Positions 4,001 through 7,000 of a stretch of DNA of 64,000 nt are shown in pieces. Below the pieces are notes generated by a model that saw nothing but the letters and a program-made list of their open reading frames with translations, had not been told where the DNA came from and ran no database searches. Made by a program: the position numbers and the translations under genes. The DNA comes from Euglena gracilis (taxonomy: Eukaryota): assembly GCA_039621445.1 (NCBI GenBank), contig CP154954.1, forward strand, positions 41,037,572-41,101,571, read 5' to 3'. How positions within the stretch are numbered: position 1 is the first letter of the stretch; each line of letters begins with the position of its first letter.

Positions 4001-7000
4001 TATCTCAGCCGTTGATGACGTTGTTGATGTTGTTGACTAATTCTAGATTTTTTTCCACCCCGTTTTATTTTTTTCAAAGAGGCCTTTTGAGACAATTCTT
4101 ATTCACGGCACATTGTAGTTGTGTATGGTGTAGTATGTTGTAAAGTGTATTTTTTTTGCTCTTTGTTGCTGTGTTTAACCCTCCTACAGGAAGTCCATTT
4201 TTTAACTGAGAAAACTGGAAAGTTTTCCCAGGATTTTAATTTTGGGGGGAGCTGGGGTGGGGCGAAACAGTGTCCCAACTATTAGCAACCCATCAATTGC
4301 GGAGCCTGACCACTGGATGTCACCCGGCCAAGGGGTTGCTTAAAGTTGTGCTTCACCGGACAGCCGAGGGATGGCTTGAATTCGGTCTGCAAACAAACAT
4401 CTCTTTCGTTCCAACGCCAAACACAATTTGAAAATTGAAGCAACTTTAACCAGCAAACAAGTTTCGCTCATTTCTCCAGTTTCAATTTTTTTTTTCATTT
4501 GCGGGTGTGGCAAGGCGTCCTGTTTTCTTCACAAACCCAGTCAACCATATCAGTCCTAACCCCCCCCCCCAAGTTTGACTTGTGCAGTTGTGATGGCAAG
4601 GGACTCTCCAGACCCTCCCGGACGCCTCTGCAGGCCCCCTGCAGGAGGATCTCCGGGCGATCGAGAAAACATACAGCATCGTGGCGGCGGTGACCGAGGT
4701 GAAGGTGACGGTGTCGGGGCCGGGGCATTGCTGAATTGAAAGAAACCCCCACCGCCGGGGGGTGGCGGGGGGGGGGGTGGTCCAGCCAGCCTGTGGTTTT
4801 TTTCCCGCCCCGGTGCCCCCCCTTCCAGTCAGGGAACGAACCTCCATGGGTCGGGGGGTTGGCCGGCTCACACCAACAACTTGAATTGCCGTTGCTTGGG
4901 AGGGAATCTCCGGCACTCGTGCTTTCGGCTTCATTTGCCAAAGAATGGTGACGGTGAGGGCAAAACCGGGGGCGACCAATAGGGGGGGGGGTGACTAACT
5001 GTACGGTGGTCAGAGTTGGTCAAGAAATCCAAAAGTGGCAAAATTGACCACAAAAAATGACTCCAAATGGGCAAAAATGCAGCCTCCACCAACGATGAAA
5101 ATGACCTGAACGGGAGATTGATGGAGAAATTGCTTCTGCATTGCAAGGTTTTGCAAGGATGTGGCTCGAGTCATTCGAGTCACACAGCTGGCCGACCGCT
5201 GGCCGACGGCGTGCTCCCCCACCCCCGCATTTCAGAGGTCGACTTCCTTGGCGCAATGATGTAGACTGGGGGGGTAATGGGTAGTCGGCCGCCTTCTTTC
5301 TTTCGGCCAGCCCAACTTGGTTTGCCTTTGGGCGGACCCCACCCCCGGGGGTCGGTCAGCGGCTCCCTGGCCGGGGCTCAAGGTGCTGGTGGAGAAGGCC
5401 GCCAAGGAGATCCTGTACCTCCTCCAGAGCGGGGCCCGGCCGCCGGAGGGCTGGCACGGGGTCCTGCCGACGCTTAGTGTGTTGCGAGATCGGGGCTTCT
5501 GCGTTGTGCGCACACAGACAACTGAAGGGGTTGTCTCTATGAGGTCGGCATTTGCCTGTAGGATTTCACCAGAACCGGAATGATTCCACCACTATGTCTG
5601 TATGGGGCATGACACCGCATTTTCAGCGAAATTGTGTCGTTTCAGTTTGCCACTGATAATTTGCTTTTGAAACCAACGTACTGTATTATGTGTGTCCCTG
5701 TTTGTTTTTTACAAAAATGTCTTCCCAGCTGGTTTCCGTGTTTGTTTGAGATGTGGGCCAGGGGGGTGTTGTAAATGGGAGGGTCTTGGATGAGGAGCCA
5801 GCAAGTGAAGGGCGAGTTTCATTTTCGCCGTTGAGTGCTCGATATTCTCTTAAATCAGAAATCCCCCCCCCTCGTAAATAGAATCCCCCCTCTCTATGGG
5901 CAGCCTACAGAGGTGGCCATCAAAGGGATCCCTGTTTCGTGACTTTGGTTGCAGTGCATTTTTCATCGCAGTGTTCCTGCCCGAATAGCCTCCGCTCCAC
6001 GGCTTTTGTGCCCCCAAGTGGTATGCAACCCGCAGGCCAATCGGTTCGGGTTGTGTTTTTATTTGTTTATTATTTGTATGCATCATTGGTTTGAGATGGC
6101 TGCCCAGCCGGGCGCCCCGTCCGCCCCCACCCTTTTGGCCGGGCCCTCCCCAGGCCTGATCTCGGAGGCCGAGCTGGAGGCTGAGGCCCCCGCCGCCCCC
6201 ACCACCGCCCCCTTGGCCCCGCCCAGCATCCCGCGGCCGCCGTACCGCAAGCAGGGCCGCCCGCGCCGGCAGCGGCGCCGGGGCGAAAGCACACTGCTTC
6301 AGATCCAGAATCCGGGCTCGAGATCCACGTGGTTCGGCTCTCGAGCACCAGCTGGGGGTGCTTTGGTGTTTGGGAGTCAGATGTGGTCGTCCTGTACATT
6401 TCATTAGAAAGTCCAGGGTTGCCGGGAAACACAGTCGTATTCGCAGCGAATGCAACGTGATGGACGATGGAGCCCAACGTTGCCCCGGCCAGCCGGCTGG
6501 CTGGGGGGGGGAACAGAACACCAGCCCAACGCCCGCCCTCTGGGAGAGTCCTCCCAAGCCCAAACACTGGCTCTGTTTTCTCCCCGCCGGAGTTTTCCCA
6601 ACGGACGGACAAGGGAATGGATTCCAACACTGGTTGGGCTCCTCCCCCAAGACCCCCCCCCCCACCGGCCCGGGGCCGCCCTGCCTCCGCCATGGCGCGG
6701 CCGCCGGCGGTGGCGCGGGGTCCCTACTCTCGGGCACCGTACCGTGGCCCCGCCGCCCAGGGCCCAGTGGACTGGTGGAGTCCGCCCCCCCCACATTTCA
6801 TGTCTGGCATGGCGGCGACCCCCCCCCCTGCCATGCCCAACACTGCCCCCTCAGCCCCCCCGCCCCTGCCAGCACCCTCATCTCGTACGCCATCCGCATC
6901 TCGGGCGTCCCCCAGCGCGCGTGCGTCTCGGACGTCGTCAAGTTCTGCGCCCGGCTCGGTGCCCCCGCTGTGGGTGGCGTCCGCCTGCCTGGATGGGAGG

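What the first reader, a model, noticed from the sequence alone, without database searches (positions are those of the whole stretch)
4713..5377. Young intron with near-intact TSD and ends matching the 33327-33688 MITE
The flanking 8-mers are GTCGGGGC / GCCGGGGC (7/8). The last 28 nt of the stem region, CCCCCGGGGGTCGGTCAGCGGCTCCCTG, align without gaps to the last 28 nt of the free MITE, CCCCCGGGGGTCGGTAAGCAATTGTATG. The 5' ends are CGGGGCATTGCTGAA versus CAGGCAATTGCTTAA. This is a second MITE family caught as an intron, here inside the KH-like domain.
Basis: seen in the sequence. Interest (0 to 1): 0.8.

Follow-up and report, generated by a model that had tools for sequence, protein, structure and literature searches.

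The report
Transposon-derived nonconventional intron in Euglena
This 657-base stretch is a real Euglena-type nonconventional intron, and its two ends and flanking 8-base repeat look like those of small mobile elements scattered through the same DNA, which supports the old idea that such introns began as transposon insertions.

Summary
RNA reads, an RNA contig and an independent transcript-derived protein all remove 657 nt and join VSG to LKV. None of the 7 compatible placements is GT/GC-AG. One placement (4718-5374) fits the published Euglena nonconventional code exactly, in its tested CGG-CTG form.

The 8-mers flanking the CGG...CTG core are 7/8 identical (chance 0.1-0.35%). Both core ends match, in register, the ends of small elements with CAGG termini and 8-bp target-site duplications. 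I found 11 of these in the window. A two-ended test gives 30 of 19,504 random pairs as good.

- Similarity stops about 35 nt in.
- A profile HMM of the family ends does not find the intron.
- The interior is unrelated to any copy.
- The intron's inverted repeat has decayed to 9 Watson-Crick plus 4 G-U pairs.

So "MITE-derived" is supported. "Young" and "same family as 33327-33688" are not shown. "KH-like" is only a weak lead.

An added point: the code's 3-nt and 5-nt offsets sum to the 8-bp duplication, so splicing removes element plus one duplicate exactly.

The parts
4634..4717 (+). upstream coding exon (…PLQEDLRAIEKTYSIVAAVTEVKVTVSG), preceded by a GT-AG intron 3329-4633
   Evidence: RNA pieces and loose ends; protein P0001 mapped
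4713..4720 (+). 5' copy of the 8-nt duplication, GTCGGGGC (first 5 nt exonic, last 3 nt are the intron's N3 spacer)
   Evidence: 7/8 identical to 5370-5377
4718..5374 (+). the nonconventional intron in the one placement that fits the published code (657 nt; 7 placements 4715-5371 to 4721-5377 give the same mRNA)
   Evidence: joint; placements and code; code
4721..5369 (+). element core, CGG…CTG (649 nt), the part equivalent to a MITE without its duplications
4721..4723 (+). 5' code triplet CGG (the CDG of N3-CDG)
   Evidence: CGG-CTG variant shown functional by knock-in in PMC12501133
4727..4735 (+). ATTGCTGAA, at core positions +7 to +15, the same register as ATTGCTTAA in three MITE ends
5036..5248 (.). 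interior stretch holding two very high-copy repeat pieces (bins 5036-5106 and 5178-5248)
   Evidence: DNA word depth 335,884 and 153,100 against about 90-110 in the flanks
5342..5360 (+). C5G5 palindrome plus TCGGTCAGC, 18/19 identical to the subterminal 3' part of the MITE at 33327-33688 and in the same register (ends 9 nt before the terminal G)
5367..5369 (+). 3' code triplet CTG, followed by the 5-nt spacer GCCGG and an exon that starts with G
5370..5377 (+). 3' copy of the 8-nt duplication, GCCGGGGC (first 5 nt are the intron's N5 spacer, last 3 nt exonic)
5375..5478 (+). downstream coding exon (G-LKVLVEKAAKEILYLLQSGARPPEGWHGVLPTLS)
33319..33696 (+). comparator MITE 33327-33688 (362 nt, CAGGCAATTGCTTAAG…GGTAAGCAATTGTATG) with perfect 8-bp duplications CTCTTGCC on both sides; it lies inside a long intron of a neighbouring M20 peptidase gene

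Best explanation
A small non-autonomous DNA transposon inserted into a coding exon of an orphan Euglena gene. It belonged to the superfamily seen here as elements with CAGG…CCTG ends and 8-bp target-site duplications, and to the clade whose ends read CAGGCWWTTGCTTAAG. The insertion duplicated the 8-mer now read as GTCGGGGC / GCCGGGGC.

The transcript survives because Euglena's nonconventional splicing system recognises the paired element ends. Here these are CGG at intron positions +4 to +6 and CTG at -8 to -6, plus a terminal duplex. The system cuts 3 nt upstream of the first triplet and 5 nt downstream of the second. Since 3 + 5 equals the 8-bp duplication, the element and exactly one duplicate are removed, and the pre-insertion reading frame (VSG-LKV) is restored.

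The insertion is not recent. The ends have drifted but still pair as RNA, and the interior no longer resembles any copy in the window.

Shown: the splice junction, the fit to the code, the end pairing, the duplication, and the in-register end similarity.

Inferred: the insertion event itself, the superfamily (hAT-like is my recollection from the 8-bp duplication), and the link between the 3+5 offsets and the duplication length.
For: Junction:
- The joint 4714->5372 skips 657 nt and is slidable by 6. It appears in 2+2 RNA reads and one RNA contig and in no DNA contig.
- P0001 reads VSGLKV.

Intron type:
- 0 of 7 compatible placements is GT/GC-AG.
- 1 of 7 fits N3-CGG…CTG-N5|G. The paper reports that all six tested introns carrying CGG-CCG or CGG-CTG were spliced.
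- The first 30 nt against the last 30 nt form a duplex of -29.8 kcal/mol. The listed fraction of 300 random partners doing as well is 0.003.

Duplication:
- The flanking 8-mers match 7/8. The null rate is 0.11%, or 0.35% for G+C-rich 8-mers.

Free elements:
- A de novo scan gave 10 elements with CAGG ends and 8-bp duplications at 7-8/8, and an 11th has an unclear duplication.
- 8 of the 11 carry CAG…CTG.

End similarity:
- 3' end 25/33, reached by 3 of 127,936 positions. 5' end 11/16, reached by 42 of 127,970.
- The best non-self match of the intron's 3' end anywhere in the window is the 3' end of 33327-33688.
- The motifs TCGGTNAGC (4 in the window) and ATTGCTNAA (5 in the window) sit in identical register in the intron and in MITE ends.
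- Two-ended, best-of-11-elements test: 29/48, reached by 30 of 19,504 random pairs.

Literature:
- A MITE origin is proposed but unproven.
- A recently gained E. agilis gapC intron has 8-nt direct repeats.
Against: - A profile HMM built from 12 family termini recovers all 12 (E 4.7e-6 to 0.046) but neither intron end up to E=100.
- A position weight matrix ranks the ends only 536th and 140th of 127,960 positions.
- In the stricter best-of-22 test the 5' end alone is marginal: 14/24, null fraction 0.064.
- The outermost 9 nt at the 3' end match 3/9.
- Whole-length alignment to every element is weak (z 2.4-7.8), against 273/303 and 270/355 between true family pairs.
- The DNA-level inverted repeat is 9/16.
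- Part of the 3' match is a C/G palindrome that is common in the window (52 instances).
- Five other likely nonconventional introns here show no clear duplication (5, 3, 4, 2 and 4 of 8). The model's generality is therefore not shown.
- No transposase was found. Pfam on 84 of the 91 open frames of 170 aa or more (7 low-complexity ones dropped) hit only an M20 peptidase domain.
Confidence: 0.7

Rival explanations
1. One reading: a recent insertion of a copy of the same family as 33327-33688, caught soon after becoming an intron.
For: - The 8-mers are 7/8 identical, better than in five other likely nonconventional introns in the window.
- The best window match of the intron's 3' end is that MITE's 3' end, 25/33.
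- The orientation is shared: 'same' beats 'flip' for that clade.
Against: - The interior is unrelated to it (51/73 aligned columns, best in the opposite orientation).
- The inverted repeat is 9/16 with 4 G-U pairs, while free copies have 12-16 and at most 1.
- The profile HMM misses it.
- The ends stand at single-copy depth at 95% likeness in a DNA run, so there are no near-identical siblings there.
- DNA contigs that differ from the window by about 1-3% carry the 3' intron junction, and none shows the empty form.
- Two-ended similarity is as high to 34234-34696 (29/48) as to 33327-33688 (28/48).
Confidence: 0.12
2. An ordinary nonconventional intron of unrelated origin. For example, gain during double-strand-break repair would also leave direct repeats. 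Its resemblance to MITE ends would then come from the splicing code, from chance, and from common C/G hairpin modules that landed inside it.
For: - Milanowski et al. 2016 offered break repair as the source of an 8-nt repeat (passage).
- In E. agilis, 84.4% of introns have short direct repeats.
- C/G palindromes are everywhere (52).
- The HMM test is negative.
- The 5' end is marginal in the strict test.
Against: - The code requires only CDG/CH'G and pairing. It does not require ATTGCTNAA at +7 or TCGGTNAGC 9 nt from the end, and in this window those motifs are otherwise almost confined to MITE ends.
- Both ends, the orientation and the 8-nt repeat agree at positions fixed independently by the RNA junction.
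- The combined chance is roughly 1.5e-3 times 1e-3 to 3.5e-3.
Confidence: 0.13
3. Reverse direction: nonconventional introns are the source, and the dispersed CAGG elements are copies of excised introns that re-entered the genome.
For: Excised nonconventional introns exist as full-length circles (review passage). Six of the 11 elements lie inside introns of one transcribed gene.
Against: Perfect 8-bp duplications and 14-16/16 inverted repeats are the signature of cut-and-paste DNA transposition. My recollection is that reverse splicing leaves no duplication.
Confidence: 0.04

Closest known systems
Euglenid nonconventional introns as defined by the splicing code 5'-N3CDG-/-CH'GN5-6|R (Nomura et al. 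2025, PMC12501133; Results and Discussion read)
   Same: There are no GT-AG borders. CGG lies at +4 to +6 and CTG at -8 to -6, with a 3-nt and a 5-nt spacer and a purine at the start of the next exon. The ends pair and the borders are slidable.
   Different: Nothing differs in the features tested. What is added is a sequence-level tie of the ends to dispersed TSD-flanked elements, which that paper leaves as 'origins remain unclear'.
Intron 4 of gapC in Euglena agilis strain ACOI 323 (Milanowski et al. 2016, PMC4770533; passages seen)
   Same: It is a nonconventional intron with eight-nucleotide direct repeats at the junctions, longer than in other introns.
   Different: That intron is absent from other strains, so its recency is shown, and the authors suggested break repair. 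Here recency is not shown, but related free elements are.
Introner elements and MITE-derived introns of Micromonas, dinoflagellates, Amoebophrya and Fritillaria (review PMC11282704; passages seen)
   Same: A non-autonomous DNA transposon with inverted repeats and a target-site duplication becomes an intron, and the splice sites relate to the element ends and the duplicate.
   Different: Those are removed by a spliceosome, sometimes a relaxed one, and have 3-5 nt duplications in the examples quoted. This one uses the Euglena nonconventional code and an 8-nt duplication.
hAT-type MITEs (recalled, not from any call: 8-bp duplications, ends beginning YARNG, weak nTnnnnAn target preference)
   Same: - The free copies have 8-bp duplications.
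- They have CAGGG or CAGGC ends.
- Position 7 of the duplicate is A in 7 of 11.
   Different: No transposase was found in the window. CAGGC does not fit the recalled fifth position. The superfamily is therefore unassigned.

Membership tests
Euglenid nonconventional intron | Removed from mature mRNA | tested here: met
   A joint skipping 657 nt appears in RNA runs X21, X22 and X15 and not in DNA run X1. P0001 spans the junction.
Euglenid nonconventional intron | No GT/GC-AG borders in any placement that gives the observed mRNA | tested here: met
   0 of 7 placements
Euglenid nonconventional intron | 5'-N3-CDG and CH'G-N5-6 with a purine starting the next exon | tested here: met
   Placement 4718-5374 reads GGC-CGG … CTG-GCCGG | G. 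The CGG-CTG variant is reported functional.
Euglenid nonconventional intron | Base pairing that brings the two ends together | tested here: met
   The duplex of the first and last 30 nt is -29.8 kcal/mol, with null fraction 0.003. The whole-intron minimum-energy fold does not show it and is no more stable than shuffles (z -0.53).
Euglenid nonconventional intron | Excised as a full-length circle, after the conventional introns | not testable with these tools
   The one read-laying run is used. A low-depth RNA contig over 4771-4977 does not decide this.
MITE (non-autonomous DNA transposon) | Target-site duplication of the family's fixed length | tested here: met
   The 8-mers match 7/8. Free copies have 8-bp duplicates at 7-8/8 in 10 of 11.
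MITE (non-autonomous DNA transposon) | Terminal inverted repeats at the DNA level | tested here: inconclusive
   The intron has 9 Watson-Crick plus 4 G-U pairs of 16. Free copies have 12-16 Watson-Crick pairs.
MITE (non-autonomous DNA transposon) | Several similar copies in the genome | tested here: not met
   No whole-length relative lies in the window. The ends stand at single-copy depth in DNA run X1. No whole genome is held, so this covers only 64 kb plus one run's contigs.
CAGGCWWTTGCTTAAG clade (18813-19033, 22543-22904, 23563-23874, 33327-33688, 34234-34696, 40075-40381) | Terminal motifs in register at both ends | tested here: inconclusive
   For: 11/16 and 25/33, motif registers, and 29/48 with 30 of 19,504 random pairs reaching it. 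Against: the profile HMM gives no hit up to E=100, and position-matrix ranks are 536 and 140 of 127,960.
CAGGCWWTTGCTTAAG clade | Internal sequence similarity to other members | tested here: not met
   Alignment z is 2.4-7.8 against 58.8 and 113.1 for true pairs.
hAT superfamily | hAT transposase with matching ends | not testable with these tools
   There is none in the window and the genome is not held.
Spliceosomal introner element | Spliced at GT/GC-AG by the spliceosome | tested here: not met
   0 of 7 placements has such borders.
   Pfam finds 0 families at E<=1. There are no relatives among 1.84 billion representatives. The AlphaFold model has mean pLDDT 49.4. Language-model features score 0.84 with KH_1 clusters among the hits, below the tool's 0.9 line.

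The most novel reading that the evidence does not exclude
The Euglena nonconventional splicing code is the RNA-level mirror of one transposon superfamily's insertion geometry. The elements end in CAG…CTG and duplicate 8 bp. The machinery cuts 3 nt before CAG and 5 nt after CTG, and 3+5=8. Any such insertion into an exon is therefore excised from the transcript exactly, and most nonconventional introns descend from these elements.

Even the code's purine at the first exon base may echo the target-site preference: position 6 of the duplicate is a purine in 9 of 11 free copies. This window shows both states side by side, with free nested copies and an exon-splitting copy.
Probability: 0.45. Interest if true: 0.85.

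Novelty: new variant of a known kind. Interest (0 to 1): 0.68.

Why it matters
The origin of euglenid nonconventional introns is called unclear in 2025, although they make up 71.8% of introns in E. agilis. The MITE idea dates from 2013, when no transposable element had yet been identified in a euglenid genome.

Here the two sides of that hypothesis lie 29 kb apart:
- dispersed elements with CAG…CTG ends and clean 8-bp duplications;
- a transcript-verified nonconventional intron whose ends, orientation and 8-nt flanking repeat line up with them.

The 3+5=8 arithmetic turns the hypothesis into direct tests using the published knock-in assay and a genome-wide tally.

In my searches and in the passages I read I found no paper that names a free euglenid MITE family matching intron ends, or that links the code's offsets to a duplication length. 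Papers outside that library, and supplements I could not see, may hold this.

Tried and rejected
- **Whole genome.** None is held.
- **Whole-intron RNA fold.** It is no more stable than shuffles and does not pair the ends, so I used an end-to-end duplex instead.
- **A 9-nt exact repeat, GGCCGGGGC (4718-4726 / 5369-5377, offset 651).** I considered it as the real duplicate. It is rejected because the mRNA skips 657 nt, not 651.
- **Blast of the intron against the window.** It returned only C/G-run and A-rich low-complexity hits.
- **Paralogous empty sites.** I searched for 13 elements and found only trivial self hits.
- **Reversed-sequence control in the TIR/TSD scan.** It is uninformative by symmetry (166 against 166). 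The mononucleotide shuffle gave 0. 156 of the 166 raw candidates were homopolymer, microsatellite or long-palindrome artefacts by my inspection.
- **Metagenome scan with a 15-base motif.** It returned 119 loci, none with a MITE-like context, at median G+C 0.69.
- **RNA holders.** No RNA holder was listed by the run index. RNA evidence came from laying raw reads.
- **Host protein.** The first query was too short. A fold model of P0001 was too poor to search.
- **Introns of the M20 gene.** These were placed with a diverged relative (P0002), and only among placements that already fit GT-AG or the code. Those placements are tentative.
- **Unseen supplements.** The supplements of PMC12501133 were not opened. 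They hold the sliding-distance distribution and the lists of CGG-CTG introns, which would show how unusual a 6-8 nt repeat is.
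Full report
**What is there.** The window looks like Euglena nuclear DNA. A protein that matches its exons is named eukprot:EG_transcript_26789 by its source.
- GTCGGGGC at 4713-4720 and GCCGGGGC at 5370-5377, 7/8 identical;
- a 28-nt ungapped alignment of 5342-5369 with 33661-33688 at 21/28;
- a 15-nt alignment of 4721-4735 with 33327-33341 at 11/15.

**It is an intron, with the predicted junction.** I laid two raw RNA-seq runs, one RNA contig set and one DNA contig set on 3900-6000.
- One joint skips 657 nt, from 4714 to 5372, with 6 letters that fit either side.
- It is seen in 2 reads of X21, 2 reads of X22 and a 370-nt contig of X15 (depth 29.8).
- It is seen in no DNA contig of X1.
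- The same contig runs on upstream into the exon ending near 3328 and downstream into the exon starting at 6156.
- Independently, the 240-aa transcript-derived protein P0001 reads …VKVTVSGLKVLVEK….

Mapping P0001 back to the window gives seven introns:
- Four are plain GT-AG: 1513-1971, 2048-2241, 2294-3148 and 3329-4633.
- Two are nonconventional: 1113-1451 and the one in hand.
- The seventh is ambiguous. The protein allows GT-AG at 5477-6153, but the RNA contig puts the junction at 5478|6156.

**It is a nonconventional intron by every feature I could test.** Of the 7 placements that give the observed mRNA, none has GT/GC-AG borders. Exactly one, 4718-5374, fits the genetically defined code 5'-N3CDG-/-CH'GN5-6|R, reading GGC-CGG … CTG-GCCGG | G. 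The paper that defined the code reports that all six tested introns carrying CGG-CCG or CGG-CTG were spliced in knock-in tests (PMC12501133, Results read). The first and last 30 nt pair at -29.8 kcal/mol, and the listed fraction of 300 random partners doing as well is 0.003. For the four GT-AG introns of this gene the same measure is -1.9 to -25.3. The whole-intron fold does not show this pairing and is not unusually stable.

**The comparator is a true mobile element, and it has company.** 33327-33688 is flanked by a perfect CTCTTGCC duplication. I scanned the window for inverted repeats (at least 12/14) with 8-nt flanking repeats (at least 7/8).
- The scan gave 166 raw candidates against 0 in a shuffled window.
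- By my inspection, 156 are C/G-run, microsatellite or long-palindrome artefacts.
- The other 10 all begin with CAGG and end with CCTG or (C/T)ATG: 2542-2823, 11704-11935, 18813-19033, 23563-23874, 24667-24903, 33327-33688, 34234-34696, 40075-40381, 54434-54555 and 61980-62329.
- An eleventh, 22543-22904, has the ends but an unclear duplicate.
- Seven have 8/8 duplicates and three have 7/8. Eight of the eleven carry CAG…CTG.
- Two pairs are clear siblings, at 273/303 and 270/355 identical columns.
- Six of them lie inside introns of a neighbouring M20 peptidase gene at about 20.3-42.1 kb. They are therefore nested insertions, not introns in their own right.

**Do the intron's ends belong to this group?** The positions to compare are fixed beforehand by the RNA junction and the code, so anchored tests are fair.

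For:
- The intron's 3' end matches the 3' end of 33327-33688 at 25/33. Only 3 of 127,936 window positions reach that.
- Its 5' end matches at 11/16, reached by 42 of 127,970 positions.
- The reverse search returns that MITE end as the best non-self match.
- TCGGTNAGC occurs 4 times in the window, three at MITE 3' ends and once in the intron, each followed by exactly 9 nt ending in TG.
- ATTGCTNAA occurs 5 times, three at position +7 of a MITE end and once at +7 of the intron core.
- The T-to-G change at the 5' side (GCTGAA for GCTTAA) is answered by A-to-C at the 3' side (TCAGC for TAAGC), so the arms still pair.
- A two-ended test builds in the choice among 11 elements and two orientations. 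It gives 29/48, with a null mean of 19.9 and SD of 2.3, and 30 of 19,504 random CDG…CHG pairs reach it.

Against:
- A weight matrix ranks the ends 536th and 140th of 127,960.
- In a best-of-22 test the 5' end alone is marginal, at 0.064.
- The outermost 9 nt of the 3' end are unlike the MITE's.
- Ten matched bases are a C5G5 palindrome of a type seen 52 times in the window.
- Beyond about 35 nt from each end nothing aligns.

Taken with the independent 7/8 duplication (0.11-0.35% by chance), I read the ends as homologous to this clade. I do not read the intron as a close copy of any member.

**Age.**

Signs that it is not recent:
- There are 9 Watson-Crick and 4 G-U pairs in the first 16 positions of the arms. 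The free copies have 12-16 and at most 1. This fits drift under a constraint on RNA pairing, though 4 G-U against 1 A-C is not significant on its own.
- The interior is unrelated to any copy.
- In DNA run X1, no other contig lies on the ends at 95% likeness (depth 86 and 113, like the flanks).
- X1's contigs differ from the window by about 1-3%. One of them bridges the 3' junction (5278-5644). The contig at the 5' junction stops 8 nt inside the core, too short to count as bridging.

A sign of relative youth: five other likely nonconventional introns in the window keep only 5, 3, 4, 2 and 4 of 8. The last four placements are tentative.

The interior also holds two pieces of very high copy number, at word depth 335,884 and 153,100. 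Their nature I did not resolve.

**Mechanism.** The code's spacers are 3 nt before CDG and 5 nt after CH'G, and the free elements duplicate 8 bp. An element ending in CAG…CTG that lands in an exon is therefore removed together with exactly one duplicate, and the frame is restored. Here the mRNA keeps the first 5 nt of the left 8-mer and the last 3 nt of the right one. This arithmetic is my inference. I did not find it in the papers I searched or in the passages I read.

Position 6 of the duplicate, which becomes the first exon base, is a purine in 9 of 11 free copies and in the intron. That recalls the code's purine rule, but the sample is small and the observation post hoc.

**Host gene.**
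- P0001 has no Pfam match at E<=1.
- It has no relative among 1.84 billion representatives.
- Its fold model is unusable.
- KH clusters appear among language-model neighbours at 0.76-0.84, below the tool's own line for a lead worth trusting.

'KH-like' is therefore not established. Whether distant euglenids share the intron position cannot be asked with the data at hand.

**Literature.** A MITE origin was proposed in 2013 (PMC3935182, passages). It was repeated in 2016, 2024 and 2025 as unproven (PMC4770533, PMC11282704, PMC11170887 and PMC12501133; passages or sections). An 8-nt repeat was noted in a strain-specific E. agilis intron and ascribed to break repair.

**Verdict.** The intron is a regular member of the nonconventional class, and descent from a CAGG-ended, 8-bp-duplicating element is the best reading (about 0.7). 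'Young' and 'same family' are not shown.

Noticed in passing
window 2542-2823, 11704-11935, 18813-19033, 22543-22904, 23563-23874, 24667-24903, 33327-33688, 34234-34696, 40075-40381, 54434-54555, 61980-62329: Eleven small elements (122-463 nt) have CAGG… ends. Ten of them have 8-bp flanking duplications at 7-8/8. Eight end in CAG…CTG and so would fit the nonconventional splicing motif. Position 7 of the duplicate is A in 7 of 11.
   Followed up: partly
window about 20331-42063, + strand: This is an M20 peptidase gene (Pfam M20_dimer on 37300-38418; relative P0002, 504 aa) with at least 14 introns. Six of the elements above are nested in its introns. Four of its introns (21711-22289, 23147-24964, 25035-26662, 39554-40803) best fit the CAG-CTG N5 code, though placement by a diverged relative is tentative.
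   Followed up: partly
window 21714-21737 versus 11704-11935: The 5' core end of the likely nonconventional intron 21711-22289 matches an end of the element 11704-11935 at 17/24 (null fraction 0.0027). Its 3' end does not match (12/24).
   Followed up: partly
window 1113-1451: The first intron of the same gene also fits the nonconventional code (CAG-CTG, N5), with core ends CAGGCC…GAGCCTG. Its flanking 8-mers match 5/8 and the next exon starts with C, not a purine. It is supported only by the protein P0001.
   Followed up: partly
window 5477-6156: The evidence on the next intron conflicts. The protein allows GT-AG at 5477-6153, but the RNA contig matches the window through 5478 and resumes at 6156. 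That gives a non-slidable GT…GC intron that fits neither rule.
   Followed up: no
window 5036-5106 and 5178-5248: Pieces inside the intron stand at DNA word depth 335,884 and 153,100, against about 90-110 nearby. One DNA contig joins 5095 to 5198. Neighbouring copies read like short A-rich tandem units.
   Followed up: no
window 4718-4726 and 5369-5377: An exact 9-nt direct repeat, GGCCGGGGC, lies at offset 651 and overlaps the 8-mers. It arises because the core itself begins with CGGGGC, the same six letters as the end of the left 8-mer. Splicing does not use it.
   Followed up: yes
whole window: There are 52 palindromes of the form C-run then G-run, many extended to TGGCCGAC…GTCGGCCA. They are building blocks of several of the elements and of the intron.
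   Followed up: partly
window 1046-6248 (gene of P0001): The host protein is an orphan. It has no relative among 1.84 billion representatives and no Pfam family. A long CA/GT microsatellite lies in its GT-AG intron at about 3500-3800.
   Followed up: partly
window 4671: A>G appears in nearly all RNA reads that cover it (5 of 6 in X21, 9 of 12 in X22), in the RNA contig and in the DNA contigs laid, so these runs carry another allele or strain than the assembly.
   Followed up: no
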